Source of the DNA: a virus
Taxonomy: Duplodnaviria; Heunggongvirae; Uroviricota; Caudoviricetes
Length of the DNA stretch: 38,666 nucleotides
IMG/VR virus record: IMGVR_UViG_3300045988_147970
Direction: 5' to 3' (one strand)
Shown piece after piece: positions 1,349 to 33,581 of this stretch; position 1 is the first letter of the stretch; every line of letters starts with the position of its first letter. The notes beneath the pieces are model-generated. The model did not search any database and had not been told where the DNA came from. It was given only the letters and a program-made list of their open reading frames with translations. The position numbers and the translations under genes were made by a program.

Positions 1349-1740
1349 TACTTCTTATTACCTTTTTTTTGCGTTGATTTTTTCGCATTACTGGTATCAG
1401 AAGTAGCTACAGATTCAGATGAATCATCAGCAACCGTTTCCTCATTGCCGCCATCATCCTCAAACTCAACCTCGAATACACAGCTACCCGCCTCCGTTCG
1501 CGTAATCAACCCCGCGTCCACAGCATCATTAACAGCAGATGCGTATCCATGCTCAAAAGCTAACTTAGCAGCATCATAGCCCCCGGCCGATGCCAAATCA
1601 CCATCCTCTTCGGTGGCAATAGCATGTCCTGACGCAATCAGTTCGGCAATTCTGGAGTTATCCATTAGCCCATTAAGCAAACGGCCCGCTTTTAGCGAGC
1701 CGTGGCTTATCGTATCAATGTTTTTAATCAGTCTGGCCAT
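1348..1740 (-). CDS. hypothetical head-completion protein (occupies the lambda FI position)
   Basis: 130 aa with an acidic C-terminal tail, immediately downstream of the major capsid gene; synteny only. Confidence 0.3.
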   Translation of the reverse strand: MARLIKNIDTISHGSLKAGRLLNGLMDNSRIAELIASGHAIATEEDGDLASAGGYDAAKLAFEHGYASAVNDAVDAGLITRTEAGSCVFEVEFEDDGGNEETVADDSSESVATSDTSNAKKSTQKKGNKK

Positions 1741-2784: not shown

Positions 2785-2804
2785 AAAAATACGACCTCTT
2801 TATA

Positions 2805-3188
2805 TTATGCAGATGGATTTTGTTGTGCGGTGTTAAGGAATATCCCAACCTTCCGGCAAGCCAGATATACATCGGCAATCTTTGCTGATTCAGGAAGGAT
2901 AACCGCATGTGCATTGAACATTCCGGTCAGCCATGCTGTTCCAACTTGCGCTGAATCAGTCGCATCAATACTGTGTTGAGCGATACAATACGGTTCTTTT
3001 GCCACCCCCTCACCAGAGAGATTTATTGGTGCTACAGTGACAACATTTGTTGTCTGATCAATACTGACAAAAGCAAGCAACTCACCTCGATTTACTTTAC
3101 CGCTGGCAAGTTTAATACTTGTTGTAATTGCTGGCATACCACCAGAAATAATCAGATTATCTGGTTCAAATGAAAAAGACTCTCGCAT
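2805..3188 (-). CDS. head decoration protein (lambda gpD-like)
   Basis: 127 aa between the protease/scaffold and major capsid genes, as for lambda D; weak sequence pattern. Confidence 0.55.
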   Translation of the reverse strand: MRESFSFEPDNLIISGGMPAITTSIKLASGKVNRGELLAFVSIDQTTNVVTVAPINLSGEGVAKEPYCIAQHSIDATDSAQVGTAWLTGMFNAHAVILPESAKIADVYLACRKVGIFLNTAQQNPSA

Positions 3189-3197
3189 AAACTCACC

Positions 3198-4286: not shown

Positions 4287-5829
4287 TTACCTCAGAAACA
4301 GGAGGCGTAATCAGCCCCAACTCACGGCGAGCATTCTCTTCTCTGCCACAAATTTGTGCGGTTTCTTCCCAGTTAAGACCTGACATTTCAGCCGCTTCCT
4401 TTTCACGGGTAGAGAATGTTTCCTCAACACGCAGTTTTGCAGCTTTGACTTCTTTAAGGGGATCTAATTGGCCTTGTGATGGGCCATACCATTGAGCGCC
4501 ACTCCATGCAGCGCGATATTCAGGCCCATAAAAAAAACCAGGGGCAATAACACGACCTTTAGCAACGGCTTCGGCCAACCATTCCTCATAGATCGGTTGG
4601 CAAAATGACTGAACCATCCAGTCACGTCGCATACGGAACATTTTCCAGGCTTCAAGTAATGCGGCCCTGCTTGCGCTATAACTTGCTGTAAAATGCTTTA
4701 CCAAGAGTTCGTAAGGGAGTTCTAAAGCAGCCCCAATTTGACGGCATATGGCGACAACAAAACCATCAAATGCCGTATTTGGTCGCCCGGGATTTGCTGT
4801 ATCTATCGACTCACCTTCACCCAAACTTACTATGGAGCCATTCCCCATTTCTTGGGTGTTATCATCATGGTTATCGATCTGCTCGTACTGAGGGATACCC
4901 GATTCACCGACTGGTCCATCAGGAGCGTCTGTTTTAATAAAGACAGTAAACATCCCTGACACAACCGCAGCAACCAATTCAGCATCGGTGTATCGTCCTA
5001 ACTGCTTCAATGCTTCAATAACAGGAGCAAGGACAGGAACGCCACGACGTTGCCCAGGCCTTTCAAAATCCTGCATGACATGCAGAATATTTCTTCTTCC
5101 TGTTTTACTCCCATATGCGGGAATACGTTCCCACTTGCGGGTTACAAAACCAGAAGTCCCGGCTGGGTGATGTTTTGCAACCCAGTACGCCACAGGCTCG
5201 CTAAATTCACCAACCTCTACGCCACCGTAAAGATTTGGTATAAAACGATCCTCTGGATTGCAAACACGATCACCTTCAATTAAATAGACGCACAAATCAT
5301 ATATAACACCCTTACGCTTAATAACTGGTAGCGCAGCAAATATATCGCCAGATGTTAACGCAGATATTTGGACCAATGATTGCAATTGTCCAAAAGTACA
5401 CATTCTTGATGCATCACAATTTGGAGAATCAGCCCATAATCTAAACTCACGCTCAACATGCTTTTCCCATGCTCGCGCTTCTTCCTGCGTCATCCCCAAG
5501 AAATCGGCATCAATGTTCGCATTTAGTTTTAAACCGGAACCAACAACGTTTGTCCTGATAGTTTTTATTGCGCCAACCGATAGCGGGTTTCCCATGAAGA
5601 GATCACGAGAACGCTCACGCAATTTATCTATATTTTTAACAATATCATCATCAGGAGAACCAGCTTTACTAAACCAACCCCTTAATGATTTTTTATGAGT
5701 GCTTGCACCATGACGTGAATATCCAAGGTTATTAATACCTTCAAGTGCTTCTAACCGTTTTCTTGCCAAAGCTCGATTTAATGCCCTCTGAGGTGAAAAC
5801 GGCGCAATAACTCGATCAAGAATATTCAT
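4255..5829 (-). CDS. portal protein (lambda gpB family)
   Basis: 524 aa, immediately downstream of the gpW-like and large terminase genes; size and pattern typical of lambda-family portals. Confidence 0.8.
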   Translation of the reverse strand: MNILDRVIAPFSPQRALNRALARKRLEALEGINNLGYSRHGASTHKKSLRGWFSKAGSPDDDIVKNIDKLRERSRDLFMGNPLSVGAIKTIRTNVVGSGLKLNANIDADFLGMTQEEARAWEKHVEREFRLWADSPNCDASRMCTFGQLQSLVQISALTSGDIFAALPVIKRKGVIYDLCVYLIEGDRVCNPEDRFIPNLYGGVEVGEFSEPVAYWVAKHHPAGTSGFVTRKWERIPAYGSKTGRRNILHVMQDFERPGQRRGVPVLAPVIEALKQLGRYTDAELVAAVVSGMFTVFIKTDAPDGPVGESGIPQYEQIDNHDDNTQEMGNGSIVSLGEGESIDTANPGRPNTAFDGFVVAICRQIGAALELPYELLVKHFTASYSASRAALLEAWKMFRMRRDWMVQSFCQPIYEEWLAEAVAKGRVIAPGFFYGPEYRAAWSGAQWYGPSQGQLDPLKEVKAAKLRVEETFSTREKEAAEMSGLNWEETAQICGREENARRELGLITPPVSEVNEQNMETDDA

Positions 5830-6065
5830 AAATCTCTTATCACCACTCGTTTAATTCGTGGGCCTCGGCGTATACCTGCTGATAATCTTTCTACTTCATT
5901 ACGCCAGTAATCCATCTCTTTTCTGACTTCTGATAAATCCGCACGAGTTAACTGCCGCGTACCAAATTTATATGACTGACCGCCAATAGCAATAGCGCGA
6001 TATGCTTCCCGCCAGACAGATAACATCTCTCTGGCTTCAGTCAGAGAAAATGCTTCATTGTTCAT
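5826..6065 (-). CDS. head-to-tail joining protein gpW-like
   Basis: 79 aa between large terminase and portal as in lambda; C-terminal RRGP motif shared with lambda gpW. Confidence 0.6.
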   Translation of the reverse strand: MNNEAFSLTEAREMLSVWREAYRAIAIGGQSYKFGTRQLTRADLSEVRKEMDYWRNEVERLSAGIRRGPRIKRVVIRDL

Positions 6066-6076
6066 TTATATTTCCT

Positions 6077-7933
6077 CTATATGGTTACGCCTTTACTTAT
6101 AACTCTACGGCGTCTTCTACGTATACCTGACGAGTTCTGCACATACACATTACCTCGCATTTCCTGTTCGGCAAGCCAGTTAAAATTAGGGTTCAGAATT
6201 TCCATCGCGGCAGTTGCATAGTTACGGCAATCAAGAGGCTCGTTACGCTCGTAGACTTTCACCCACTTTTCTTTTGTCTGCCCATTTTTATATTCAAATA
6301 TTTTCTTCTCTGATAATAATCCTTTAAAGTATTCGGTATCATATCCTCTGTCAGAATCTAATGGGAAATGCATATAACCAGGACCAGGATCATGTAGTTT
6401 AATTCTTGCCATGATGGTCCCTTTACCATCATCAACCCCCAAATTAAACAACATAGCACCCACACGGTTATTATTACTTGGCTTTCCTATAAATGGTAAA
6501 CCTACCCCACCACGCCCCCTGATAGAGTATATTCGCCTTGATTCTCTCGGCTTAGTAAAGCGATATACCTCTGTCGTAAAATGCCCACCAGAGTCAATAC
6601 AAACGGAAGAAATCTGTAATTTTCGACCGTCACGGAATGACCAGCTACGGAGTAAGTATTCATCAAGTTGTTTCCAGACAACATCTTGTGCGGGATCACC
6701 TGGGAATATTTTATATTCTATCCCCCATGACTCCTTACCTTTTCCCCAACCGACCAATTCACAAACTAAATACGTGTCCTGTACGTCAACACCAGCACTT
6801 AACAATAAAACATCATCTGGTAAAAACTCTTCAAACCTTATTCTGCGTTGCAACAAGTATTCAGGATCGATATCGTCTTTAGCATCCTCTTTCCATGGCT
6901 CACCCAGCTTAAGGTTAATAAACTCCATTAATCCATTTTTATCGCGGTTTCTGGTTGCTTCCGTAAATTCTTCAACCAGCTCTGACAATGCAACCCACGG
7001 GGAGTAAAGACTGTTAATATGAAAACCAACAATACCTTTAACTCCAGTATGTTCAGCTATCCATACCCCCTTCGCCAACCAATCAACGTCTGGTTTACCA
7101 GATCCGCGCATAATCCCGCCGCACTCACAGCACTCATATCTGGCCGTTTCCGGTAACGCCTCACCTGAATCGCTCTTATCCCATCTGACTTGCGACCATT
7201 TCATCACCTGCATGGTGCCACAACATGGGCAAGGAACATGGTAGTAACGCTGATCGGAGAGCTTAAACCACTTGTGGATTTTGCTCGTTTCCTCCAAAAC
7301 AGGAGTAGAAACAAAAACTTTCTTACGATTATGAAAGTTGGTAGTACGCTGAATACCTAGTTTTAGTGGGTCGCCCTCCTGCGTCACACCGTAACGATCA
7401 ATCTCATCAGCTAACAGTATTCGAATTGGCCTGGATGCAAGACCTGCTGGGGAATTAGCACCAACAAGTGCTATATATCCACCAGCGTAATGCTTCATAC
7501 GTATAGTCGTGCTGGACTTTTTGGCTGCACCGCGCCCCTCTTTCCCTTCATGCAGCTTGTGTTTCAAACCAGGGGAATATTTGAACGTCGGATCAATACG
7601 CTCTTTTGAAAAAGCCTCAGCCGCCTCTACCGTTGGATAAATCATCAACTGAGGAGATGGCTCCTGATCTGCAAAGTAACCCATAACATTTAGCTGTAAT
7701 TCGGATTTACCAATTTGCGAGCTACATTGCATCACTACTGTTTCTGTATCAGCGTCACCAATAACATCCATTGGTTCACGCAAATATGGCACTCGGCTTG
7801 TACGCCACGGCCCTGGCTCTGGAGACGTTCCCGGCGCTACATGACGATACTTATCAGCCCATTCGGAAACAGTTAGCCGTGATTTAGGGCGAAGCGCACG
7901 GAAAAAAGCGGTGCTCCATACTGTTTCGCCCAT
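6077..7933 (-). CDS. terminase large subunit (lambda gpA family)
   Basis: 618 aa; N-terminal TVSEWADKYRHV resembles lambda gpA AVEWADANYYLP; Cys-rich CPCCG motif aligns with gpA CPHCG. Confidence 0.85.
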   Translation of the reverse strand: MGETVWSTAFFRALRPKSRLTVSEWADKYRHVAPGTSPEPGPWRTSRVPYLREPMDVIGDADTETVVMQCSSQIGKSELQLNVMGYFADQEPSPQLMIYPTVEAAEAFSKERIDPTFKYSPGLKHKLHEGKEGRGAAKKSSTTIRMKHYAGGYIALVGANSPAGLASRPIRILLADEIDRYGVTQEGDPLKLGIQRTTNFHNRKKVFVSTPVLEETSKIHKWFKLSDQRYYHVPCPCCGTMQVMKWSQVRWDKSDSGEALPETARYECCECGGIMRGSGKPDVDWLAKGVWIAEHTGVKGIVGFHINSLYSPWVALSELVEEFTEATRNRDKNGLMEFINLKLGEPWKEDAKDDIDPEYLLQRRIRFEEFLPDDVLLLSAGVDVQDTYLVCELVGWGKGKESWGIEYKIFPGDPAQDVVWKQLDEYLLRSWSFRDGRKLQISSVCIDSGGHFTTEVYRFTKPRESRRIYSIRGRGGVGLPFIGKPSNNNRVGAMLFNLGVDDGKGTIMARIKLHDPGPGYMHFPLDSDRGYDTEYFKGLLSEKKIFEYKNGQTKEKWVKVYERNEPLDCRNYATAAMEILNPNFNWLAEQEMRGNVYVQNSSGIRRRRRRVISKGVTI

Positions 7934-7938
7934 GAGGT

Positions 7939-8499
7939 TTATTCTTCCTGCTTAATAAATCGGGATTCCTGGAGCGCCTGAAGCGCAAAATTAATCTCGT
8001 CTTCAATAATGCGTTCGATCTCCCTGGCTGTTTTGCCTTCACAACGGGGAGCTGCTCTTGGAGCAATACTAAATAAGCGGCTACGCAATTCATTAGCTGC
8101 CAGAAATGCATCATCCCTGACCGCATCTTTAGCGATGAGAGAGCCTTCCTTTTCTTCAAATTCAAGGCGTTTCAGCTTTGCCTGATAAATTTTTTCTGCG
8201 GTCTTAGCCTTGTTGAATTGCACCGCAACACCGGAAGTACCACCAGCTAATCCGGCATCATCAGCGGGTAACTCTGGTTGTTCCGAAGATATCCCATGCC
8301 CTCTTTTTCCATTTTCAGCAGATACCTCACGACCAACCTGTCGGCTCGCTTCATAAGCCGCACTGGCTTTATCAAAATCCAGCTTGCCGCTTTTCAGCAC
8401 TGGAATGCGACCGGAACGACAGAGCTTCGTAACCATTGCCGGAGAAATACCTTTCCGGCGAGCAAACTCTGACTTACTGACGATGGCCATTACTTGCAA
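7939..8499 (-). CDS. terminase small subunit (Nu1-like, N-terminal HTH)
   Basis: 186 aa directly upstream of the large terminase; N-terminal helix-turn-helix-like segment (SKSEFARRKGISPAMVTKL). Confidence 0.6.
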   Translation of the reverse strand: MQVMAIVSKSEFARRKGISPAMVTKLCRSGRIPVLKSGKLDFDKASAAYEASRQVGREVSAENGKRGHGISSEQPELPADDAGLAGGTSGVAVQFNKAKTAEKIYQAKLKRLEFEEKEGSLIAKDAVRDDAFLAANELRSRLFSIAPRAAPRCEGKTAREIERIIEDEINFALQALQESRFIKQEE

Positions 8500-9080
8500 C
8501 CATTAGCAAGATACTGAACAAATCCCTCATGCGTTTCATGCGCGTCGTGGTACTGACGATAAACATCCAGCAACAATGCAATTTCCATATCCGTCGCGGG
8601 AATACGTTCTTTATCAATAGCCAGGTACTTAATTTGAACAACAGGGGAAGAATTATCGTCTTCTTCCTGCGGCTGTTCATCGCTTAACATTTCGTCAAGC
8701 TCTGCATCATTAAACCCAAGCAGATCAATATCAAAATCATCATCCATTAACTCTTTGACTTCTTCGGCCAGAAGCTGCATATCCCAGCCAGCATTTAAGG
8801 CCAGCTTGTTATCTGCAATCCTGTAAGCCTTCTTCTGTTTTTCAGAAAGGTTACTCAACCGAATCGCCGGAACTTTATCCATTTCCAGAATTTCGGCTGC
8901 TGCAAGCCGACCATGCCCCGCAATCAGTTCATTCTTTTCATCGATCAGCACAGGATTAGTGAAACCGAACTCACGGATACTGTTCACCAACTGTTCAACC
9001 TGCTCATCTGAATGAGTCCGTGAATTTTTGGCGTATCTGAGCAGCTTACCGACTGGTAAATATTCGATTTTTAGAGCCAT
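8490..9080 (-). CDS. ParB-like nuclease domain (ParB/Srx N-terminal domain) protein
   Basis: 196 aa with ParB N-domain box (LIAGHGRLAAA); stop overlaps the small terminase start; paralog of 11747..12370. Confidence 0.7.
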   Translation of the reverse strand: MALKIEYLPVGKLLRYAKNSRTHSDEQVEQLVNSIREFGFTNPVLIDEKNELIAGHGRLAAAEILEMDKVPAIRLSNLSEKQKKAYRIADNKLALNAGWDMQLLAEEVKELMDDDFDIDLLGFNDAELDEMLSDEQPQEEDDNSSPVVQIKYLAIDKERIPATDMEIALLLDVYRQYHDAHETHEGFVQYLANGCK

Positions 9081-9637
9081 TTTTTAACCGCCATAACACA
9101 ACAGGTTAAAGAAAACTGTTTAACTTATTGATACTAAAAGAGAAAAATGACGATCTTTTTACTCATAAAAAATCACACAAACCAGCATAATCATCTGATT
9201 TTATTAAGTTTTTATAAGTAAAAAGGATCTTGAGATGGTGTTTTGGTTAAAAGATTGGATGTATTTGCATGATTTATAACGATTTTTATCAGAACAACAT
9301 CACATTGGTTAAAGATCTGCGCGTATCTTGATGATCTAAAAGAAAATTTTCTACTTTCTTTTTACCAGCACAAATACAGCAAAAAATCACGTTTTCCCGA
9401 TATTTTTCAATGAGATGAGTAAATTTCTTTTACCGCAACTTTTAACCTAACTTTTTTCACGTTTAGCTAGCCGAACATCGGGGTTCGAATGACCCGCATC
9501 CAACGCTTTTGTCCAGAAGGACCCAATTCTGCCGGACGATGAAACGATGCTCGTGCACCCCCACAGACAGCCAGCGAGCGACGCTACAGAACACAGTGAA
9601 TACACTCTGCATAACAACACCATCAACCACACGATGA

Positions 9638-10357
9638 TTAACGAGAGAAGGTCTTGGAAAGAATGTCATCAATAGCCTTTGTGACTTCATCAGCAAACGC
9701 ATCCTCACCAGCACGCAGCGCCACGCCATGCCAATCAAGACGCTGCGAATAGTTAGGTTGCTGGATAAACGTAAGGATCAACGTAGGACGCCGCCCAACG
9801 CGCTGCCAGACGCCTGGTTGAAGCGGGTTACTTGTACCAGGTCGAACAACAAAAAACTCCGTAGGCTTGCCCTGACGGCGATTTTGATGCGCATCTCGCT
9901 GAACTCTTAGGCCAGATAAGACCTGCTGTAATTGCCCCCGCGAAATATTCCCGTATTTGTCCAGCTTTGCGCCGGGACCAGGAGCAATCTGCCAGCCGTT
10001 AGGCAAATATCCACCAGCCCTTAGCGCCCCTTCTGAGCGTTTGTACTGTCGTTGGCCACCTTCGATTTGCGGAGTCAACGTTACAGGGGCTGGCGTTCCT
10101 CCCCATTCACGAGCATACACAATGGCTGTAGGATCACTCTTCTTTGCGGCCAAAACGTAAGTAGAGTTCTGAATCCACGGCGTGGGCCTGTCAAATACCC
10201 GATTAATTTCATTCTTAATCGCAGCCTGAGAAGCCTTTGCCGTTCTGGTTGCCGCAAGCGCCATTGCGAACGGCAATTCGCGTTCTTCAAGGCGCTGGAG
10301 TTGTCGTTGAATATCCTGAGAAGAAAAATCCATCTTTATCTCAATTCTGTCAGCCAC
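9638..10357 (-). CDS. hypothetical protein within the ParB/methyltransferase cassette
   Basis: 239-aa ORF co-oriented between the ParB-MTase fusion and the terminase-proximal ParB gene; no motif recognised. Confidence 0.35.
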   Translation of the reverse strand: MADRIEIKMDFSSQDIQRQLQRLEERELPFAMALAATRTAKASQAAIKNEINRVFDRPTPWIQNSTYVLAAKKSDPTAIVYAREWGGTPAPVTLTPQIEGGQRQYKRSEGALRAGGYLPNGWQIAPGPGAKLDKYGNISRGQLQQVLSGLRVQRDAHQNRRQGKPTEFFVVRPGTSNPLQPGVWQRVGRRPTLILTFIQQPNYSQRLDWHGVALRAGEDAFADEVTKAIDDILSKTFSR

Positions 10358-10373
10358 CAGCGCCTCCTACACA

Positions 10374-11753
10374 CTACTTAATCAACGGCCGGAAAGCCGC
10401 CAGCACATCATCAGATCGTCCGATTGTTGAACCACCAGGCAACGGCAACTCAAACTCAAAACGAACAGCTTTCTCCAGACTCGCCCAACTAAGGGAATCA
10501 TCGTTAATGACGTGCAAATACCAGCTCTTACAGTTGAATATTGACCGCTTAATCCTGAAACCATGTACACGACACAACTGCTTCACTTCCTCATCAGAGT
10601 GAAACTTCTGGTAAAACCAGTGCCCCTTCCGGTACAACGCGGTAAAACCGTCATGATCAATAAAATAAAGCCGGCTTTTGGAACTCGCCGCTTGTGTTTG
10701 CTTCAGGACTGTTTCCAGTTCTCCACGGCTACGGCCAGAAAAGAATATTGACCCACCAGCTTTACACAGGCCTTTCAGAACCGTCAGAACGGACCATTCA
10801 GCCTCGACACTATCGACCGAGTTCAAAACGCTATCGCAAATCACGTAGTCGTAACGCCCTCGCGTTTTTAAGTCGTCCACCAGCGTATCAATCATCCGGT
10901 TTGTTGCGGCCCTATCCAGAGTGTTTCCAGCGCCCTTACGGCGGAAAAGCTCGAGATCATGCAGGTTATATCCCTTTGCCCTGAGCATTCGCGCGTAGTC
11001 TCCCTGCCCCGAACCAAAATCAATTCCTCTTGGCGTCTTGGCAATGATCGGGAGGATCAACGACTCATACAGATTTGATTTCAGGCTGCCACCATTACGC
11101 AACCGCATAAGCTGCGCATACGTCTGGATGTATGTTGTTTTCTCCAGATGAGAATACTCAAATACACCATAAGTTTTATTCAGATAACTTTGGTATTTTT
11201 CCTTCTCAACATCAGGGATCACAAACACCGTTAGCGGTGTGCGCGTCATTTTCGCTGCTAATGCATACTGAGCACAGTGAATAACCTCACCAGACTGAGT
11301 AGCAACACAACCACCCCACGGACCATACTTGATAACCAGTTCCGCTATGTTCTTTCGAACATATGCCATTTTCGCGCGCATATTGCCTGAGATCTGGCTT
11401 GCCGATACCTGAACAAAACCATGCTTATCTTCCAGACCGGACACCCTGCAACGCTCATCTCCGCTATCAAAATCCGTTCCGTTATGCAGTTGGTTAAACC
11501 GTACTTCGTCGTATACCGTCGTTTCACAGGGCAACACATACACCGCAGCACGCGTTATTCCCAACTTACGTAGCGCCTTCGTCCTTTGGTGTCCCGCCAC
11601 CAGCAAATCGCCGCGCACTATCAATGGCTTCACAAGCCCCAGCTCCCTGACGCTTTCCGCCAGCCTCGCAAGATCATCCTCACCGATAAAACGCGGGTTA
11701 TATTCCGCGCCGCGTAGGTGCGTTATGTCGTAATTGAGGTGAAGCATCAGCAC
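10374..11753 (-). CDS. ParB-like N-terminal domain fused to a class I SAM-dependent methyltransferase domain
   Basis: N-terminus has a ParB box (LLVAGHQRTKALRKLG); C-terminal half has SAM-MTase motif I (IDFGSGQGDYARML), an acidic motif II (YDYVICDSV) and GGSIFFSG; 459 aa. Confidence 0.65.
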   Translation of the reverse strand: MLMLHLNYDITHLRGAEYNPRFIGEDDLARLAESVRELGLVKPLIVRGDLLVAGHQRTKALRKLGITRAAVYVLPCETTVYDEVRFNQLHNGTDFDSGDERCRVSGLEDKHGFVQVSASQISGNMRAKMAYVRKNIAELVIKYGPWGGCVATQSGEVIHCAQYALAAKMTRTPLTVFVIPDVEKEKYQSYLNKTYGVFEYSHLEKTTYIQTYAQLMRLRNGGSLKSNLYESLILPIIAKTPRGIDFGSGQGDYARMLRAKGYNLHDLELFRRKGAGNTLDRAATNRMIDTLVDDLKTRGRYDYVICDSVLNSVDSVEAEWSVLTVLKGLCKAGGSIFFSGRSRGELETVLKQTQAASSKSRLYFIDHDGFTALYRKGHWFYQKFHSDEEVKQLCRVHGFRIKRSIFNCKSWYLHVINDDSLSWASLEKAVRFEFELPLPGGSTIGRSDDVLAAFRPLIK

Positions 11754-12370
11754 ACCTCCCCAGCCAGCAATGCGGATACAAATCCGATATAGCTGCCATT
11801 ATCATCAACATAACGAGACACCGCGCAGTCAAAACGATCCGCTTCCTCATCCGTTGCCGGGATTTTATGACCTCCAAATGACAGGTACTGAACTTTTACG
11901 CCTGATTTGGCCTCATCCTTCTCAAATGGGATATCCATACCCTCTGTGTCATCGTAGACCGCCGCACTCAATAAGTTATCCAGTTCGCGCTGAGTAAAAC
12001 CAATTGAGTCCAGAGCAAAATCATCGGCCGCAAGATCTGCAAGCTCCGCGCTTAACAACTCTTCATCCCAACCAGCATTCAGCGGAATACGGTTGTCGGC
12101 CAGACGATATGCCTTCTTCTGATTCTCCGTTAGCCCAGCCAGAACAATGCAGGGAACATCATCCATCCCCAACTGAGTGGCCGCAGCAATTCGACCATGA
12201 CCAGCAATTACAACGTTGTTCTCGTCTATCAGGATCGGATTAGTCCATCCGTACTCCTGTATGCTGGCAACAATCTGATCTACCTGCTCCACGGAGTGTG
12301 TGCGAGCGTTCTTTTCATAACCAATCAACACAGAAAGTGGTAAAGAAACCACATTAAGATGTTTTGTCAT
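11747..12370 (-). CDS. ParB-like nuclease domain protein (paralog of 8490..9080)
   Basis: 207 aa; ParB box (VIAGHGRIAAA); similar along its length to the 196-aa ParB-like protein, including the C-terminal KIPATDEE region. Confidence 0.7.
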   Translation of the reverse strand: MTKHLNVVSLPLSVLIGYEKNARTHSVEQVDQIVASIQEYGWTNPILIDENNVVIAGHGRIAAATQLGMDDVPCIVLAGLTENQKKAYRLADNRIPLNAGWDEELLSAELADLAADDFALDSIGFTQRELDNLLSAAVYDDTEGMDIPFEKDEAKSGVKVQYLSFGGHKIPATDEEADRFDCAVSRYVDDNGSYIGFVSALLAGEVC

Positions 12371-13026: not shown

Positions 13027-13057
13027 AAAATAAAAAGCCCCGCGACACCGCGAGGCT
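13027..13057 (-). terminator. intra-operon rho-independent terminator or attenuator
   Basis: Minus-strand hairpin AGCCUCGCG-GUGU-CGCGGGGCU followed by UUUUAUUUU, then AGGTGA RBS and the ATG at 13015. Confidence 0.4.
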
Positions 13058-13703: not shown

Positions 13704-13777
13704 CCCATGTTCTCCTTTGTCTGGATGTAAAAAAGCCCCGGCAATTGCCGAGGCTCGTTGTTCGTTATCGTTACGGT

Positions 13778-14251: not shown

Positions 14252-14355
14252 TCTCCGGTTTAACCAGGGCGGGTATCGCTCGGTTTCGGGTATAATCATA
14301 GGAAATTTTTTCCCACCTGCAAAGCACTTTTTATATAAATATATAATTATATAAT
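14252..14355. repeat. ~104-bp duplicated promoter-leader module, copy A (copy B at 21832..21935)
   Basis: ~93% identical to 21832..21935; each copy sits directly upstream of a minus-strand gene start and carries the AGGAAA-N3-TTTCC operator-like motif and AT-rich TATATAA repeats. Confidence 0.6.
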
Positions 14356-14356
14356 T

Positions 14357-14944
14357 CTATGCCACTTGCCAGAGAGCATCATGCAACTGGATACCTCCAT
14401 TGCACTGGTTGCCCCAGCCATGCCAACCATCAGGTAAATCACCGCGAGCAAACAGCTCAATACGAGGAACATCACCTAACAGCCTTACCAGCTTGTCACG
14501 AACCACATCAGGCTTCCGAGAATGCTCCAGACGAGGCGATGTAAACGACTGAATGATCCCCGCATCAAGGCGGGTCGGCAATTTGCCTTTTACCGCAAAC
14601 AAGCAATCTTCACTGTTTGCACGAGTCATATGCCCCATCCCCATCACCAGCTTATCTGGTTGTCGGCTACCACATTTGTTCCATGTGAAGCCCTTCATGG
14701 TCATAAGCCTGAATCCCCATGCTTTCACCACCAGCAACGCTTCTTCTGGCTGAGTCGGAACCCACCACATGGCCAACAAACACGATTCAGGATTAGCAAG
14801 CTGCCAGACAGGAATACGAGCAATATCCTCAGCTTTCATCGTTGGATACTTAAAACCAGCTCCACGATTCCCATCCTTACACTTATCTTTGTATTCCCAG
14901 GGGGGATCTGCATAAATCAGATTAAACAATGCAATTGCCTCCAT
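14357..14944 (-). CDS. N6-adenine DNA methyltransferase, MT-A70 family
   Basis: N-terminal IYADPPWEY (DPPW catalytic motif) is the MT-A70 signature; 195 aa. Confidence 0.8.
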   Translation of the reverse strand: MEAIALFNLIYADPPWEYKDKCKDGNRGAGFKYPTMKAEDIARIPVWQLANPESCLLAMWWVPTQPEEALLVVKAWGFRLMTMKGFTWNKCGSRQPDKLVMGMGHMTRANSEDCLFAVKGKLPTRLDAGIIQSFTSPRLEHSRKPDVVRDKLVRLLGDVPRIELFARGDLPDGWHGWGNQCNGGIQLHDALWQVA

Positions 14945-15010: not shown

Positions 15011-15043
15011 CGAAAAGGGCACTAACCAGACTGATTAATGCCC
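15011..15043 (-). terminator. possible terminator downstream of the tRNA
   Basis: Minus-strand hairpin GGGCAUUAA...UUAGUGCCC (one U-G wobble) followed by a U-rich tract; approximate. Confidence 0.3.
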
Positions 15044-15252
15044 TTGCCTGTTGTGTGCCGGATATCGCCCGACAACGCTGTTTTGGTAACACGGCTACAG
15101 TTCCGTGCCGCTCCAGCTTTTACCCCTTTGCGGATAACAGGCCCTGCCTGTAACTTAGCCCCACGTTCGCCCGAAATGCGCACCAGGCACGCATAAAGAT
15201 GAGCACGAAGGAAGTAACTCCACCGCGCTTATCTTTATGTGTGAGAGTGAAT

Positions 15253-15328
15253 TGGTGGCCCCTACCGGATTTGAACCGATGACCGTGCGATTATGAGTCG
15301 CCTGCTCTAACCACTGAGCTAAGGGGCC
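15253..15328 (-). tRNA. tRNA with anticodon CAU, ileX-like (tRNA-Ile2 or Met); 3-prime CCA encoded
   Basis: Reverse complement GGCCCCTTAGCTCAGTGGTTAGAGCAGGCGACTCATAATCGCACGGTCATCGGTTCAAATCCGGTAGGGGCCACCA folds as a cloverleaf; the first ~42 nt match my recollection of E. coli ileX. Confidence 0.85.
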
Positions 15329-15497
15329 ATATTTGATCTGTTTGTCTGGTGTGGCGCCGCGCACGAAAATCCCAGCCAATAAATTCAGGATTTTTGGGCG
15401 CGGCGGCATATCAGACAAACATGGTTGATGCGTGCGCCCATGAGAAAAGCGCATAGAATGTTGTAACTATATATTTATATAATTATAGAAATATATA

Positions 15498-15707
15498 TTA
15501 CTTTCGGCAGTTGATTTCCCATGCCCTGTTATGAGCCAGAATATCTTTCTTTGTCTGGCGGTCCATAACATCGATGTCGTGATCAGTCAGGTAGATGGGC
15601 TTTACCCAATCACAGGCGGTATCAACCACCACCGGGACGCTTCCACGACTCCCGCAGCTCGCGATCAACATCGTCATCAGCCATATGGTTAACACTCTGC
15701 TGTACAT
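15498..15707 (-). CDS. o-spanin (Rz1-like outer-membrane lipoprotein)
   Basis: 69 aa with lipobox LIASC; reading frame overlaps the 3-prime end of the i-spanin gene. Confidence 0.55.
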   Translation of the reverse strand: MYSRVLTIWLMTMLIASCGSRGSVPVVVDTACDWVKPIYLTDHDIDVMDRQTKKDILAHNRAWEINCRK

Positions 15708-15900
15708 TCCCCACCTCTTTTGTCACTTCTATACGCCGCTCCGCAGTGGCTTTTACAGCGGCTGCATTCTCATTAATGCGCTGCTTTTCAGCTTCATCTT
15801 CGGCCTTTTCTCGCCCCTTCATACGACCAAAACCAAACGCACCGAATGCAACCAATATAACGGTGCCGATAAATGACAAAACGGCTTTCAAACCAGTCAT
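15622..15900 (-). CDS. i-spanin (Rz-like)
   Basis: 92 aa, N-terminal TM helix then charged coiled-coil; immediately downstream of the endolysin. Confidence 0.55.
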   Translation of the reverse strand: MTGLKAVLSFIGTVILVAFGAFGFGRMKGREKAEDEAEKQRINENAAAVKATAERRIEVTKEVGNVQQSVNHMADDDVDRELRESWKRPGGG

Positions 15901-16439
15901 ACCACCACTCGCTCTTTCATCCAGCCGTAGACAAACGACTCATTAGCCTCGCGCTTCTCCGCCAGCTCCAGATAGCGTTCGCCCTGCGTACAGTTCAGCG
16001 ACGTCAGCATCACCCGTTCGCCGTCTTTTCCCCGATTCCCAAGATAAGCACGTAGCGCATTAATGGTACGTGGACCGATTCGTCCGTCTGCATCCAAATC
16101 GGGATACAGCTTCCCGCGCAGGTTGAACACATTCAGCCAGCGTTGAAGCATTTTTGACGCCACTGTTGGCCCCATGTTCACCCCCGTGTCACACAGCTCT
16201 GCGGCAATATCAGAGGATAATGCGGCCACCTGATCAAAGCGTGGTCCGTACCAGTAATCAGCCTCAAGGATTTCCAGTGCCTGTTCGCGGGTTAAATCGC
16301 GCATATCGCCACGGTATCCATGAGCACGGGCAGTGTTCTGAGTAATGCCCCACTTTGTTGGGCCTCCCTTGTCGTCAGGGTGATCCACATAGCCGCCCTC
16401 TTTTCCAAGAACGCTGTTAAAAATCTCATCTTTGGTCAT
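15897..16439 (-). CDS. endolysin, GH108 muramidase with C-terminal peptidoglycan-binding domain
   Basis: N-terminus EGGYVDHPDDKGGPTKWGIT is the GH108 signature; 180 aa; follows the holin genes. Confidence 0.8.
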   Translation of the reverse strand: MTKDEIFNSVLGKEGGYVDHPDDKGGPTKWGITQNTARAHGYRGDMRDLTREQALEILEADYWYGPRFDQVAALSSDIAAELCDTGVNMGPTVASKMLQRWLNVFNLRGKLYPDLDADGRIGPRTINALRAYLGNRGKDGERVMLTSLNCTQGERYLELAEKREANESFVYGWMKERVVV

Positions 16440-16758
16440 GATTAAACCCTAATGCGTCAACTATCCGCGCCAGATTGCCCCTGAAATACAGAACAACGAT
16501 GCAGATAATCAGATTTCCAATAACCACCAGCCAGTGGGATTCTTGATAAAGACCGAACACATAACGGAAGGGAACATTGGCGTATACAATGACGTAGATA
16601 TAAGCCAGAAAGGAAACAAATGGACGATGCCTGGAGTCTTTCCGTCGATAAAGCATCAGCGCCATTACTATTACTGTGCAAAGCACCGCATTAATCAGTG
16701 CTGACGGGTCACTGCTTACCATTTGAACCCCCTCCACGTAAGCGGGAAAGCATTCCAA
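16426..16758 (-). CDS. putative holin / antiholin membrane protein (start uncertain)
   Basis: 110-aa ORF with at least two hydrophobic helices between the holin and the endolysin. Confidence 0.4.
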   Translation of the reverse strand: MECFPAYVEGVQMVSSDPSALINAVLCTVIVMALMLYRRKDSRHRPFVSFLAYIYVIVYANVPFRYVFGLYQESHWLVVIGNLIICIVVLYFRGNLARIVDALGFNHDQR

Positions 16759-17104
16759 AGATGCTACCGAGATCCTGGCTGTTTACGAACGTGAGGATTT
16801 TAATTGTCAATGCAGCCACAATAACCGCACCAAGTGCATCAAGAGGACGATCGTTGTAGCTGGTCCATTTGGCAAGAAATGAGCCAACTAACGGCGCTCC
16901 AATCACTCCAACAATGAACGATGTAAAGAAATAGCCAATCAGCTTGAGACGGCTAATATTCACCGCTGTAGCAACATAGAAAACAGCGCCAGCAAATGCC
17001 CCGAATACAACGCCGTAATCAATACCAGTTGCAATACCAAAAACGCTGGCCCCCATCAGGCCACCAGCAGCAACGGCCGTACCGGAAATTGGTTCTGCTG
17101 ACAT
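16709..17104 (-). CDS. holin
   Basis: 131 aa with three hydrophobic segments; first gene after a rho-independent terminator; GAGG RBS. Confidence 0.6.
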   Translation of the reverse strand: MSAEPISGTAVAAGGLMGASVFGIATGIDYGVVFGAFAGAVFYVATAVNISRLKLIGYFFTSFIVGVIGAPLVGSFLAKWTSYNDRPLDALGAVIVAALTIKILTFVNSQDLGSIFGMLSRLRGGGSNGKQ

Positions 17105-17117
17105 TGAAATCCTCGTT

Positions 17118-17149
17118 AAAAAAAAAGCCCCGCCGAAAAAGGCAGGGCT
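17118..17149 (-). terminator. rho-independent terminator immediately upstream of the holin gene (tR-prime-like)
   Basis: Minus-strand hairpin AGCCCUGCC-UUUUUC-GGCGGGGCU followed by a run of 8 U, ending ~14 nt before the holin start. Confidence 0.6.
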
Positions 17150-17490
17150 TCATAAAGCAACAAATTACGCGGTAATCGCTTAACGCAGTTTTACTACGTT
17201 AAATGAAACACTACACCCAGTTACCACCTAAAACAAGGTTTCCCCATAAAAAAACCTTCATATCGTGGTTAATCGATCAATAAAAAATCAATGTTCAACT
17301 TTTTACCAACCGAACATCCCGACCAGGACTTCCATAATATTCGCCGATATGCCACTGCTTAAGTTGAGTAATCTTCTCCAACTTAACTCCCATAGAGTCC
17401 AGTTTCTGCCATGTTTTCGGTTGTATGTGCTTCATTACCCGCTCTGAATATCTGAATACTGCTCGTAAGCGCATGGTTTCTCACTACAGC

Positions 17491-17898
17491 TTATATATGT
17501 TCACGACTGGACTTCCAGAATATCCACGCCAGATCAACATTCGGGTCCTGGTAATTCATCCCTTCGTTGGCACGAATCAATAATGTTTCATGGTTTTTAT
17601 CACCCGCATGAAACCTGACAAGTGCTTCGAACTTTTCGCGCCCATCATCCGGCACTACCACCGTTGGCGGCGCGGAGAATAGAGGTTTAGGTGATATTTC
17701 CGCACGTTTTGCGTATGCTTCAACTGTGTCAGGGTTAAACAGGATTATGTTTTCACCGCATTCCCACGCTACCGGCTCTGCTTCCAGTGATGCCAGAGCA
17801 ATTTCATAAGCACGGCGCTCAATATTGTCTCGGACGTCCAGGCTGCCTATGCGCTCTTTGATTTCTTTAATCAGTTCTTTGTCGGTTAAAGTGGTCAT
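17491..17898 (-). CDS. hypothetical protein (candidate late regulator by position)
   Basis: 135-aa ORF immediately upstream of the late-region leader and terminator; no motif recognised. Confidence 0.3.
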   Translation of the reverse strand: MTTLTDKELIKEIKERIGSLDVRDNIERRAYEIALASLEAEPVAWECGENIILFNPDTVEAYAKRAEISPKPLFSAPPTVVVPDDGREKFEALVRFHAGDKNHETLLIRANEGMNYQDPNVDLAWIFWKSSREHI

Positions 17899-18104
17899 TT
17901 GTTAATCCTCAAAACTTTATGCCCGGGCGCAAAAGCACGCGTTTTGTCGGCGCTTATTCGCCACCCATCTTTACGTGCCTCTTTTGCACAGCCAGCCCAT
18001 GACGTACCGATATATTCACCGAAGTCTGGTACTGGATATACACCTTCCGTACACTGGCGGCAGTCACAATAGAGATGCATGGTGTAACTTGCGGCAACAG
18101 CCAT
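17895..18104 (-). CDS. small Cys-rich protein (possible zinc-binding)
   Basis: Start at MAVAASY (residue 37 of the track ORF) with GGAG 8 nt upstream; contains CDCRQC. Confidence 0.3.
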   Translation of the reverse strand: MAVAASYTMHLYCDCRQCTEGVYPVPDFGEYIGTSWAGCAKEARKDGWRISADKTRAFAPGHKVLRINK

Positions 18105-18105
18105 A

Positions 18106-18297
18106 TCACTCTCCTTTAGTACGCAAGTGGTTTTTCCAGCGGTTTTGCGCCGCGCTGCGCTTATCTTTGACTCCCTCTCTGGCAATTCCAGAAAATGAAA
18201 ACAACACCACACGGCGATTGCTAACTCTCAACCACTGGCTGGGGTAGCAAAGTCTGTATACACGGGAAATAAGCATCTTTGCTTTACGGTTTTTCAT
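18106..18297 (-). CDS. hypothetical small basic protein
   Basis: 63-aa ORF; ATGA start/stop overlap with the upstream 58-aa ORF. Confidence 0.25.
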   Translation of the reverse strand: MKNRKAKMLISRVYRLCYPSQWLRVSNRRVVLFSFSGIAREGVKDKRSAAQNRWKNHLRTKGE

Positions 18298-20680: not shown

Positions 20681-20757
20681 TGTCGAGGCGTCCTTATAAA
20701 TTTATATAAATATATAATTCTATATAAGGCGGGAGACATCCCGCCGTAGGCTTACTG

Positions 20758-21825
20758 TCAGGCTTTCAATAGCGATTCTTTCAGATATCGGGCATCAGCC
20801 AGGGCGTTTGGAGTAATCTTGCGAACCCATGCATTACGGGTTGGACTCCACTTAAAGGCGCGTGATTTAAGCAGCGAACGAATGTTTGCCTCTGGTTTGC
20901 CTGGGAAATAAAACAGGATGCGGTTATCCTCTGGATCTATCTCCATAGAAAAGCCGTCGTATTCTTCGCGCTGTGCTCCTGTTACAGACTTGACCGATTC
21001 AAGCTCCTTAATACGGCTCTGTAGTCGTTTGATTTCGGCGTTATTGTTGCTCAGTGCGTATGAAGGGAATCCGATGTGCCCACAGAAATCTCCGGCCAGT
21101 AACTCTTTGGCTTCGCTTTCTGTAAACCTGAGATCGATTAATGCAGAAAGCTGCTGTAATTGGTCTTTTTTGTATTTGCGAATGGCCTTATTTGCGGCCT
21201 TCATTTTGACGTGTGACTTCATGCAGCCTTGCAGCTTACGAAGCAACTTAAATAGCGCATCAGGATCATCAGACGAAATTCCATTACGACCAACACCTGC
21301 GGCTTTGCTCTCGTAGTGTGATGCTTTACTTTCGCATTCAACAAACGCTTTTCTTAATAACGCATCAGCTTTAGACAAACGGCGGCGATGGCCTTTCGCG
21401 CTATAATGGTCAACTAAAATCGGCTGGCCTAACGGGATCACATCCAACAGGTCATGCGCTCGCTTATGCGCTACCGCACCTTCTTTTCTGGCTTTTTCTG
21501 CACGAGCAATATATCGGGCAAGACGCGCGTTCTGGCGTTCCTGATAGGTGTTTACGTAATCATCTCCGCGCTGCTGCTGTTCAAGCCATGCTTTGCGCAG
21601 ATCTTCTGTTACGTCCACCAGCTCCGCAGGGATACAACCAGTTTGGGCTTCATAAGAGTAACCATCCTCATAGATACGCCCATCATCTTCAACAAAGAAA
21701 AAGGTTTCGTGCTCATCGCTTTTGACCATACGACCATTAACATGGCGTAATAGGTAGCCAGTATCAGTGCTTAACAAGCTGTTAGGGTTGTTGATCCAGT
21801 CAGAAATAATTACTTGTTTATTCAT
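20758..21825 (-). CDS. DUF3560-like protein with N-terminal extension
   Basis: Start at MNKQVII (residue 51 of the track ORF) with GGAG RBS; motifs GQPILVDHYSAKGHRRR, SSDDPDALFKL, KAANKAI, DFCGHIGFPSYALSNNNAEIKR, FKWS match my recollection of DUF3560. Confidence 0.5.
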   Translation of the reverse strand: MNKQVIISDWINNPNSLLSTDTGYLLRHVNGRMVKSDEHETFFFVEDDGRIYEDGYSYEAQTGCIPAELVDVTEDLRKAWLEQQQRGDDYVNTYQERQNARLARYIARAEKARKEGAVAHKRAHDLLDVIPLGQPILVDHYSAKGHRRRLSKADALLRKAFVECESKASHYESKAAGVGRNGISSDDPDALFKLLRKLQGCMKSHVKMKAANKAIRKYKKDQLQQLSALIDLRFTESEAKELLAGDFCGHIGFPSYALSNNNAEIKRLQSRIKELESVKSVTGAQREEYDGFSMEIDPEDNRILFYFPGKPEANIRSLLKSRAFKWSPTRNAWVRKITPNALADARYLKESLLKA

Positions 21826-21831
21826 CAGATT

Positions 21832-21935
21832 TCTCCGGTTTAACCAGGGCGGGTATCGCTCGGTTTCGGGTATAACCTTAGGAAATTTTTTCCCACCCGT
21901 AAAGCACTTTTTATATAAATCTATAATTATATAAA
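21832..21935. repeat. ~104-bp duplicated promoter-leader module, copy B
   Basis: See copy A; upstream of the DUF3560-like gene start at 21825. Confidence 0.6.
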
Positions 21936-22018
21936 TAATAGTGACTGGTGCTTTTTTAGGCTGCACATTAAACATTTTTGTTTAGCTTATTGGCAAGGTC
22001 TTGAAAAAGACATTTCAG

Positions 22019-33373: not shown

Positions 33374-33581
33374 TATTGCGTCTCCACGGAGGAAAATTGT
33401 TTACTGATATTGGCATAACCGGAGCATCAGGAACTTTAAGAATAATTCCCGCAGAAAAAAGCACCGTAAAGCGGTGCTCAGTATTAGCATCAATAAGAAG
33501 ATAAGACAGGTACTCATTACCATACAACTTTAAAGCGATACTATCCCATGAGTCCCCTTGAACCGTTCTATAATCATCCAA
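33363..33581 (-). CDS. tail protein X-like (LysM-like, P2 gpX family)
   Basis: 72 aa; QGDSWDSIALKLYGNE...KVPDAPV parallels P2 gpX QGDTLDAICVRYYG...VELPDVQ. Confidence 0.7.
   Translation of the reverse strand: MDDYRTVQGDSWDSIALKLYGNEYLSYLLIDANTEHRFTVLFSAGIILKVPDAPVMPISVNNFPPWRRNSVT

What the first reader, a model, noticed from the sequence alone, without database searches (positions are those of the whole stretch)
17118..17898. Terminator directly upstream of the holin implies antitermination-controlled late expression, but no recognisable Q
A strong intrinsic terminator ends ~14 nt before the holin start, as lambda tR-prime sits after pR-prime, with a ~340-bp leader upstream. The genes just upstream (135 aa at 17491..17898 and a 69-aa Cys-rich protein at 17895..18104) show no Q-family features, so late control may use a divergent or novel antiterminator.
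Basis: inference. Interest (0 to 1): 0.5.

Follow-up and report, generated by a model that had tools for sequence, protein, structure and literature searches.

The report
Late-gene terminator switch missing its antiterminator
A strong transcription stop signal sits just before the lysis genes of this E. coli phage-plasmid, preceded by a deeply conserved promoter; this is an ordinary lambda-style late switch whose probable antiterminator, an unannotated distant relative of phage 21 Q, is encoded in complete relatives but is absent from this window.

Summary
The terminator is real. It has an 11-bp stem (17151..17124, minus strand) and nine T (17126..17118), with dG -20.5 kcal/mol. It ends 13 nt before the holin ATG (17104).

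The "340-bp leader" is only partly non-coding. It holds a conserved 59-aa gene (17295..17474). The remaining ~190 nt carry a footprinted sigma70-type promoter, TTGTTT-N17-TAGTGT (17236..17208), then a hairpin at about +1..+19. The predicted terminated RNA is ~80 nt, like lambda pR'-6S-tR'.

The same layout (promoter, 5' hairpin, terminator, first lysis gene) recurs in enterobacterial lineages and in Vibrio phage K308. The hexamers are kept in most of them, but the spacer differs between lineages.

The 135-aa and 69-aa genes are swappable cargo, not regulators.

That gene lies in a 9.3-kb segment missing from this window; the junction falls in a 112-bp repeat.

Verdict: antitermination-controlled late expression is supported. 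It is a divergent member of a known kind, not a new mechanism. Nothing here was tested experimentally.

Novelty: 'novel antiterminator' is too strong. Complete relatives encode a 125-aa protein that is a remote Q21-family (PF06530) relative by fold and by profile comparison. It lies ~4.7 kb upstream of the late promoter, in a segment that this window lacks.

The parts
17118..17151 (-). Intrinsic terminator before the holin: 11-bp stem 17151..17124, loop TTTTTC, T9 run 17126..17118.
   Evidence: dG -20.5 kcal/mol, z -4.5. Kept with a different sequence in Salmonella and L010 lineages, with compensatory and wobble changes.
17208..17236 (-). Candidate late promoter: -35 TTGTTT (17236..17231), 17-nt spacer TAGGTGGTAACTGGGTG (candidate Q-binding element), -10 TAGTGT (17213..17208).
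   Evidence: The only match to TTGTTT-N17-TAGnnT in the window. A relaxed form of this pattern occurs once per related genome, always before the lysis genes, in five lineages with lineage-specific spacers. The start site was not mapped.
17182..17200 (-). Hairpin at the predicted 5' end of the leader RNA (AACGTAGT-AAA-ACTGCGTT). The predicted start is ~17200. The loop and 3' arm hold a -10-like AAAACT, a candidate sigma-dependent pause element.
   Evidence: Invariant in the E. coli, Salmonella and L010 lineages. Hairpins with other stems sit at the same place in L019 (GGTGG/CCACC), L022 (GGTCG/CGACC), L024 and Vibrio phage K308. The pause function is inferred.
17255..17273 (-). Block A, ATTAACCAC-GATA-TGAAGG: a conserved upstream element of unknown role. 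Its AACCAC is the inverse of the GTGGT in the promoter spacer.
   Evidence: AACCAC-N4-TGAAGG is invariant in 14 distinct relatives while the N4 varies. It recurs in L019, L020 and L022. ACCAC repeats also flank the K308 promoter.
17295..17474 (-). Conserved 59-aa gene inside the supposed leader (phrog_9594). Function unknown, and dispensable in some relatives.
   Evidence: Annotated in Yersinia phage vB_YpM_41. Absent from pMB9880_3 and L012, which keep both the leader and the Q-like gene.
16709..17104 (-). First late gene: 131-aa holin. It is followed by a second holin, a GH108 endolysin and a spanin (15498..16758).
   Evidence: RefSeq annotation of the 100%-identical plasmid NZ_CP069971.1.
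17491..18104 (-).
   Evidence: Only PHROG families of unknown function match. DNA matches to Stx and other lambdoid phages cover the neighbouring cargo genes upstream, window ~17800-18160. At least five different genes sit in this position in relatives with the same leader.
13036..13057 (-). Further strong co-directional terminator inside the late region, ~20 nt before the gene starting at 13015.
   Evidence: 9 pairs, 7 GC, tail TTTTATTTTC; sequence.
13733..13756 (-). Further strong co-directional terminator, ~30 nt before the gene starting at 13703.
   Evidence: 10 pairs, 7 GC, T6. An equivalent terminator is present in the Salmonella relative at L016 35628-35651.
21822..21933 (.). 112-bp repeat at the junction where ~9.3 kb present in complete relatives is missing. 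The missing segment holds the CI-like repressor, ParA, the c4/isrK/ant region and early genes including the 125-aa Q-like gene.
   Evidence: BLAST of the window against NZ_CP069971.1. tblastn with the 125-aa protein finds nothing in the window. The junction is contiguous in none of 74 complete E. coli relatives.

Best explanation
The region is the late-control cassette of a ~48-kb E. coli phage-plasmid, built like lambda pR'-6S RNA-tR'.

A weak sigma70-type promoter (TTGTTT-17-TAGTGT, 17236..17208) starts transcription near 17200. The RNA begins with a conserved hairpin and, without a factor, ends ~80 nt later at the terminator (17151..17118), 13 nt before the holin ATG. The same terminator also stops early-operon transcription arriving from upstream, so lysis genes stay silent.

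In complete relatives the early operon encodes a 125-aa protein (WP_001250512.1) with a sigma-region-4-like fold and a remote relationship to phage 21 Q. I infer that it binds the lineage-specific promoter spacer. I further infer that it loads onto RNA polymerase near the start site and makes it read through this terminator and the later ones (15045..15015, 13756..13733, 13057..13036). That would give one long late transcript covering lysis, packaging, head and tail genes.

The window itself lacks that gene. As assembled, its late genes would need the factor in trans.

Shown: the terminator, the conservation pattern, and the fold and profile similarity. Inferred: the start site, the binding site, the pause element and antitermination itself.
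For: - Terminator strength and position.
- No room for a promoter between terminator and ATG: 13 nt here, 55 nt in Salmonella.
- Promoter footprint: the relaxed pattern [GT][GT]GTTT-N16-18-TAGnnT hits once per genome, always before the lysis genes, in five lineages. The -35 and -10 are kept while the spacer is lineage-specific.
- Constraint on the promoter block: within the E. coli/Salmonella/L010 group the 57-nt block differs at ~3 positions, while the adjacent gene differs at 64% of third codon positions.
- Spacer tracks the protein: proteins >=89% identical go with spacers 15/17 identical; proteins <=61% identical go with spacers 3-8/17.
- More strong co-directional terminators in the late region, also present in a Salmonella relative.
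- The low-confidence but most conserved segment, residues 21-47, occupies the place of the 21Q H1-H2-H3 linker that forms the exit-channel ring (PMC6606751).
- The 125-aa protein by sequence: 12 of 113 family representatives hit PF06530, more than any other family. hhalign of the family against PF06530 members gives 79.9% probability, E 1.4e-5.
- Co-occurrence: the leader is in 61 plasmids (57 Escherichia, 3 Salmonella, 1 Klebsiella). The protein at >=90% identity is also in 61.
- Vibrio phage K308, whose protein is 35% identical, has a promoter, a 13-bp hairpin and a strong terminator ending just before its holin.
- Lambdoid phages with a related holin have a Q gene and terminators shortly before the holin.
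Against: - No transcript data: the start site, termination and read-through are all untested.
- The promoter hexamers are weak (3/6 each), and the consensus scan did not flag them.
- The 125-aa protein gets no Pfam hit of its own. BLASTP against a PF06530 Q gives E 0.085 over 13 aa. The shallow profile comparison gave only 4.3% probability. All Foldseek E-values exceed 0.1.
- The gene is not adjacent to the promoter: ~4.7 kb away in NZ_CP069971.1.
- Spacer and protein co-divergence could simply reflect shared ancestry.
- The -10-like loop motif is imperfect in L024.
- AT-rich palindrome promoters downstream of the lysis genes could drive some downstream genes independently.
Confidence: 0.6

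Rival explanations
1. Control acts at initiation, or through the RNA, rather than through a Q-type factor. The 125-aa sigma4-like protein would activate the weak late promoter. The conserved 5' hairpin would act in cis on the polymerase, as HK022 put RNA does, or the activated polymerase flux would simply leak through the terminator.
Against: An activator alone cannot get past a -20.5 kcal/mol terminator with nine U or the later terminators. Only one hairpin is conserved, whereas put has two. No Rfam family reaches its threshold. The family's only recurrent named Pfam relation besides sigma/HTH models is Phage_antitermQ. The longest structural alignments are to 21Q and AlpA, both antiterminators.
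Confidence: 0.15
2. The element is chiefly a small-RNA gene, or the 3' end of the early operon (an Hfq-type sRNA with a GcvB-like GU-rich stretch). On this view its terminator merely insulates the lysis genes, which are expressed by leaky read-through, and the structural genes use other promoters.
For: There is a sub-threshold Rfam GcvB match at 17119..17276 (34.3 bits, E 1.8e-5). Several Hfq-sRNA models match the terminator end weakly. The terminator has a long U tail preceded by a U-rich stretch. AT-rich palindrome promoter-like elements lie downstream at 15468-15511 and 14332-14367.
Against: The GcvB score is below the family's gathering score (34.3 against 42). The aligned GU-rich part falls in the promoter spacer and -10, upstream of the predicted start. 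The cassette always sits directly before the first lysis gene, even where lysis genes and terminator sequence differ. The downstream promoter-like elements are themselves followed by strong terminators before the packaging genes. A short terminated RNA is also what the Q model predicts, as with lambda 6S RNA.
Confidence: 0.12
3. The antiterminator is one of the genes directly upstream: the 135-aa or 69-aa protein proposed by the first reader, or the 59-aa protein acting on the hairpin like lambda N on boxB.
For: All three are close to the cassette. The 59-aa gene is conserved next to the leader in three lineages and is basic at its N-terminus.
Against: The 135-aa and 69-aa genes are replaced by unrelated genes in relatives with an identical leader, and their families are unannotated cargo. 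The 59-aa gene is missing from pMB9880_3, NZ_CP082049.1 and L012, which keep both the leader and the Q-like gene. It is also absent from the L019/L022 lineages and from K308. None of the three has any Q or N family hit. The AF2 model of the 59-aa protein is unreliable (pLDDT 59.6).
Confidence: 0.05

Closest known systems
Lambda late control: Q, pR', 6S RNA, tR', then S-R-Rz
   Same: A promoter followed by a short terminated leader directly before the lysis genes. Early transcription approaches on the same strand. One long co-directional late region carries internal terminators. The regulator is made from the early operon.
   Different: The predicted leader RNA is ~80 nt against 194 nt in lambda, and the terminator abuts the holin ribosome-binding site. 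The candidate regulator is unrelated to lambda Q (PF03589). It lies ~4.7 kb from the promoter rather than next to it. The replicon is a RepA plasmid with a P2-like tail module.
Phage 21 Q (21Q, Pfam PF06530) and its pR' (PDB 6P18, 6P19, 6JNX)
   Different: The E. coli protein gets no Pfam hit of its own. It is 125 aa against 162 aa for 21Q. It has a canonical short turn in the helix-turn-helix, instead of 21Q's long loop. The spacer sequence is not TGAGCA repeats. The gene is not adjacent to the promoter. A conserved 5' hairpin and an upstream AACCAC...TGAAGG block have no described counterpart in the phage 21 papers read here.
Pseudomonas aeruginosa AlpA, a Q-like antiterminator (PDB 7XYB)
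   Different: The structural score is lower than for 21Q. No sequence relation was found.
HK022 put RNA
   Same: A structured RNA at the very start of a transcript that precedes terminators.
   Different: put has two stem-loops, works without phage proteins, and sits after early promoters. Here only one hairpin is conserved, and a Q-like protein co-occurs with it.

Membership tests
Lambdoid Q-type late cassette (promoter, short leader, terminator, lysis genes) | An intrinsic terminator between the late promoter and the first late gene. | tested here: met
   Terminator 17151..17118, dG -20.5 kcal/mol, 13 nt before the holin ATG. Conserved in position across lineages.
Lambdoid Q-type late cassette (promoter, short leader, terminator, lysis genes) | A sigma70 promoter a short distance upstream that yields a short terminated RNA. 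| tested here: inconclusive
   TTGTTT-17-TAGTGT is footprinted in five lineages and is unique per genome. However, the hexamers match only 3/6 each, and no transcript ends were mapped.
Lambdoid Q-type late cassette (promoter, short leader, terminator, lysis genes) | The Q gene lies immediately upstream of the late promoter. | tested here: not met
   No Q-like gene is in the window. In complete relatives the candidate lies ~4.7 kb upstream, separated by DUF3560 and cargo genes.
Lambdoid Q-type late cassette (promoter, short leader, terminator, lysis genes) | A Q-binding element between -35 and -10, plus a -10-like pause element in the initial transcribed region. | tested here: inconclusive
   The spacer is conserved within a lineage group and differs between groups, in step with the protein. 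A loop motif AAAACT/GAAGTT/AAAGTT is present but imperfect in L024. Binding and pausing were not tested.
Lambdoid Q-type late cassette (promoter, short leader, terminator, lysis genes) | Read-through of the terminator depends on the factor. | not testable with these tools
   This needs a reporter fusion or in vitro transcription.
Q21 antiterminator family (Pfam PF06530), applied to the 125-aa protein of relatives | A match to the PF06530 model. | tested here: not met
   No hit for the E. coli, Salmonella or L010 proteins even at E <= 10. Twelve of 113 family representatives do hit it, with best E 3.7e-6.
Q21 antiterminator family (Pfam PF06530), applied to the 125-aa protein of relatives | Profile-level homology to family members. 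| tested here: inconclusive
   hhalign of the 113-member family against PF06530 members gives 79.9% probability, E 1.4e-5, over 77 columns. With the shallow alignment the probability was only 4.3%.
Q21 antiterminator family (Pfam PF06530), applied to the 125-aa protein of relatives | The 21Q fold: a sigma-region-4-like domain capped by an N-terminal helix, joined by a mobile linker. | tested here: met
GcvB sRNA (Rfam RF00022) | A score at or above the gathering threshold of 42 bits. | tested here: not met
   34.3 bits at 17119..17276.
Lambda N / nut system | An arginine-rich N protein plus boxA/boxB sites after the promoter. | tested here: not met
   No N-family hit. The only small basic protein nearby, the 59-aa one, is absent from relatives that keep the leader. 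TTGCTTTA before the terminator only loosely resembles boxA (my reading).

The most novel reading that the evidence does not exclude
The conserved 5' hairpin and the AACCAC/GTGGT elements are not decoration. On this reading, the 125-aa sigma4-like protein family is a distinct class of late regulator. It is widespread and unannotated in phage-plasmids of Enterobacteria, Vibrio, Pseudomonas and others. It would load differently from the known Q proteins, for example through an upstream site plus the nascent hairpin, or by replacing sigma region 4. It would act at a distance from its own gene.
Probability: 0.15. Interest if true: 0.6.

Novelty: new member of a known kind. Interest (0 to 1): 0.35.

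Why it matters
It assigns a testable function to an unannotated protein family. I found at least 131 clusters at 50% identity, always in the early operon of RepA/ParA phage-plasmids, and all labelled 'hypothetical'.

It also gives the late promoter and terminator of a phage-plasmid family common in clinical E. coli, including the plasmid of reference strain ATCC 25922.

It would extend the Q21 type of antitermination beyond lambdoid prophages. It shows that a Q gene need not sit next to its promoter, so gene-neighbourhood rules for finding Q would miss such cases.

For this window it flags a practical point. As assembled, the element has lost repressor, partition and Q-like genes, so it is either defective or mis-assembled.

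Tried and rejected
- Pfam and PHROG scans of ten window proteins and ten early proteins of NZ_CP069971.1 found no Q, N, Ogr, Mor/C or similar regulator.
- Rfam on the leader gave only sub-threshold hits driven by the terminator.
- A search for a second copy of leader motifs in the window found none convincing.
- Exact-pattern scans: genome contigs gave 0 hits. Viral contigs returned only the same family.
- Homologues of the 59-aa protein exist only within the family. Its AF2 model is unreliable (pLDDT 59.6), so no fold search was run on it.
- Direct BLASTP of the 125-aa protein against a PF06530 Q was insignificant, as was the shallow profile comparison. An HMM search of PDB sequences gave only a weak Tc3 HTH hit.
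- Literature searches for this phage-plasmid family or the Yersinia phages found nothing useful. pSLy3 turned out to belong to another group (SSU5).
- A promoter between terminator and holin was rejected for lack of room.
- Block A was rejected as a sigma70, sigma54, sigmaE or sigma28 promoter by inspection of the hexamers.
- The terminator-like hairpin at 33479..33459 may lie inside an unannotated tail-X-like gene, since L016 annotates one there. I do not count it as firm.

Full report
**What the window is.** All genes in the region run on the minus strand. The window is >=98% identical over most of its length to ~48-kb circular E. coli plasmids that are also phages. These carry RepA, a toxin-antitoxin pair, a lambda-like head, a P2-like tail and a lysis cassette. 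Examples are NZ_CP069971.1, the 48.5-kb plasmid of ATCC 25922, and Yersinia phages vB_YpM_39, 41 and 44.

**The observation.** The terminator is there and it is strong. The stem spans 17151..17124, the loop is TTTTTC, and nine T occupy 17126..17118. The sequence AACGAGGATTTCA and the holin ATG at 17104 follow. It folds at -20.5 kcal/mol with z = -4.5, and none of 200 shuffles folds as well. With only 13 nt before the start codon, no promoter fits downstream. The holin can therefore only be transcribed by polymerases that pass this terminator.

**The 'leader'.** The 339 bp upstream are not all leader. A 59-aa ORF (17295..17474) matches phrog_9594 (E 8.6e-46). It is annotated in a Yersinia phage. 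It evolves like a gene: 19 synonymous against 11 non-synonymous codon changes between E. coli and Salmonella versions, with 27 of 42 differences at third positions. The true non-coding leader is ~190 nt.

**Phylogenetic footprint of a promoter.**
- I aligned 14 distinct relatives from three lineages: E. coli type, Salmonella plasmids, and a third lineage, L010.
- The lysis genes and the terminator sequence differ between these lineages. A 57-nt block is almost invariant: CCTTGTTTT..GTGGTAACTG.GTGTAGTGTTTCATTTAACGTAGTAAAACTGCGTT.
- It reads as -35 TTGTTT, a 17-nt spacer, -10 TAGTGT, 7 nt, and then a perfect hairpin. That predicts a start near 17200 and an ~80-nt RNA ending at the terminator. 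The 89-nt stretch 17200..17112 folds at -34.4 kcal/mol, z -5.2.
- More distant family members keep the arrangement with other spacers. I found them through the 125-aa protein described below. L022 has TTGTTT-N17-TAGCGT, L024 has TTGTTT-N17-TAGTCT, and L019 has GGGTTT-N17-TAGTAT.
- In each, a hairpin with a different stem follows after 7-9 nt, and a strong terminator lies further on.
- The relaxed pattern hits once per genome, always before the lysis genes. Only two other hits occur in 432 kb searched on both strands. The window has exactly one strict match.
- The weak hexamers (3/6 each, but with TTG and TA...T intact) explain why the consensus scan missed the promoter.

The 135-aa and 69-aa proteins belong to unannotated PHROG families. 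DNA matches to Stx and other lambdoid phages cover the adjacent cargo genes just upstream, around window 17800-18160. Relatives with the same leader carry at least five different genes in that position. These genes are cargo. The 59-aa gene is itself replaced in pMB9880_3, NZ_CP082049.1 and L012.

**A candidate antiterminator in complete relatives.**
- The early operon of full-length relatives has a constant core: a 164-aa gene, a ~160-aa gene, a 77-aa gene, a Ref nuclease, DUF1064, and then a 125-aa protein. The core is followed by DUF3560 and cargo genes.
- The 125-aa protein has no Pfam hit. Its N-terminus (RDLDxLxELWAxW) resembles that of PF06530 Q proteins (RDIQMVLERWGGW). Its C-terminus looks like sigma region 4.
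- An AF2 model (pLDDT 77) has six helices and a low-confidence segment at residues 21-47. That segment is nevertheless the most conserved part of the family.
- Foldseek's top PDB hit is the Q21 loading complex, with many other Q21 chains in the list, though all E-values exceed 0.1.
- The published 21Q structures describe this same architecture. There is a sigma-region-4-like domain related to 2H27, an N-terminal helix packed on it, and a mobile H1-H2-H3 segment that forms the ring in the RNA exit channel. The 21Q binding site lies between -35 and -10 (10.1101/651190; PMC6606751).
- An exhaustive profile search found 131 clusters of relatives. Of 113 scanned, 12 hit PF06530, more than any other family (best E 3.7e-6), and 6 hit an ECF sigma model.
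- The family profile aligns with PF06530 members at 79.9% probability, E 1.4e-5, over 77 columns.
- I read this as a remote Q21-family relative. I would not call it a proven member.

**Link between protein and cassette.**
- The leader is found in 61 plasmids of PLSDB (57 Escherichia, 3 Salmonella, 1 Klebsiella). The protein at >=90% identity is also found in 61. pMB9880_3, which lacks the 59-aa gene, is among them.
- Proteins >=89% identical go with spacers identical at 15 of 17 positions. Proteins <=61% identical go with spacers at chance level, 3-8 of 17.
- In Vibrio phage K308 the protein is only ~35% identical. Its holin is still preceded by TTGAAA-17-TATGTT, a 13-bp hairpin 8 nt later, and a 12-bp terminator with a T-run ending just before the start codon.

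**Why processive antitermination is plausible.** Strong co-directional terminators also lie inside the late region: 15045..15015 after the tRNA, 13756..13733, and 13057..13036. The last two sit 20-30 nt before the next gene start. A Salmonella relative has equivalents. Only one late-type promoter exists per genome, so a terminator-resistant polymerase is the simplest way to reach the packaging, head and tail genes.

**The window lacks the factor.** Compared with NZ_CP069971.1, the window is missing positions 847-10169, and the junction falls in a 112-bp repeat (21822..21933). The missing segment holds the CI-like repressor, ParA, a P1-like c4/isrK/ant region and the early genes, including the 125-aa gene. 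tblastn with that protein finds nothing in the window. None of 74 complete E. coli relatives has this junction. The window's ends overlap by 54 bp, as in a circularised contig. It is either a rare deletion derivative or an assembly that jumped across the repeat.

**Rivals.**
- The protein could be a sigma4-type activator, and the hairpin a put-like RNA.
- The leader could double as an sRNA. The GcvB hit is below threshold, and its GU-rich part lies in the promoter spacer.
- Both remain possible but explain less. The upstream genes are effectively excluded.

**Comparison and verdict.** The region works like lambda pR'-6S-tR', with a Q21-like factor. It differs in three ways. The factor's gene is ~4.7 kb from its promoter. 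The protein is too diverged for Pfam to detect. A 5' hairpin and an upstream AACCAC-N4-TGAAGG block are conserved without a known counterpart. It is a new member of a known kind, of moderate interest. All functional steps remain to be tested.

Noticed in passing
window 14332-14367, 15468-15511, 20695-20730, 21912-21947: A family of AT-rich elements built around the perfect palindrome TATATAATTATATA. They lie in four intergenic spots: before the 89-aa gene, the tRNA, the MarR-like gene and DUF3560. Two of them sit inside a 103-114-bp repeat. They look like operator/promoter units for a dimeric regulator.
   Followed up: partly
window 21822-21933 (junction); window 31-84 = 38613-38666: The window lacks ~9.3 kb present in all complete relatives: the repressor, ParA, the c4/isrK/ant region and early genes. 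The junction falls in a repeat, and the window's ends overlap by 54 bp like a circular contig. It is either a rare deletion derivative or an assembly collapse.
   Followed up: partly
L016 21135-21320; L021 1405-1605: Relatives carry a C4 antisense RNA and an isrK-like RNA next to an ORF6N/Rha-type antirepressor gene. This is a P1-like immI immunity region, and both RNAs score above Rfam gathering thresholds. The region is missing from the window.
   Followed up: no
window 15253-15328 (-): ARAGORN calls this gene tRNA-Met (CAT), while RefSeq annotates the identical gene as tRNA-Ile. It is probably a lysidine-type tRNA-Ile2. It has its own AT-rich promoter-like element and a terminator at 15045..15015.
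   Followed up: no
window 8490-9080, 10374-11753, 11747-12370, 14357-14944: Three ParB/Srx-domain proteins, one fused to a large C-terminal domain, and an MT-A70 methyltransferase lie between the lysis and packaging genes. An AT-rich ~400-bp gap (9081-9480) carries repeated CTTTAACC motifs and may be the packaging site.
   Followed up: no
L024 12200-13086: In one distant relative the late promoter and hairpin are followed by more than 850 nt of GC-rich sequence. It has no called gene and no Rfam hit, and it runs to the contig end. It may be a large structured RNA.
   Followed up: no
L019 10700-10873; L022 13000-13196: In these lineages a further ~220 nt follows the main terminator. It contains a long inverted repeat and another hairpin ~25 nt before the endolysin start, so the leader is more elaborate than in the window.
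   Followed up: no
L029 33290-33350 (Vibrio phage K308): Three direct repeats of ACCAC(A/T)AA lie upstream of and inside the late promoter spacer. The same pentamer occurs as AACCAC in block A, and inverted as GTGGT in the spacer, of the window. It may be the recognition motif of the Q-like protein.
   Followed up: partly
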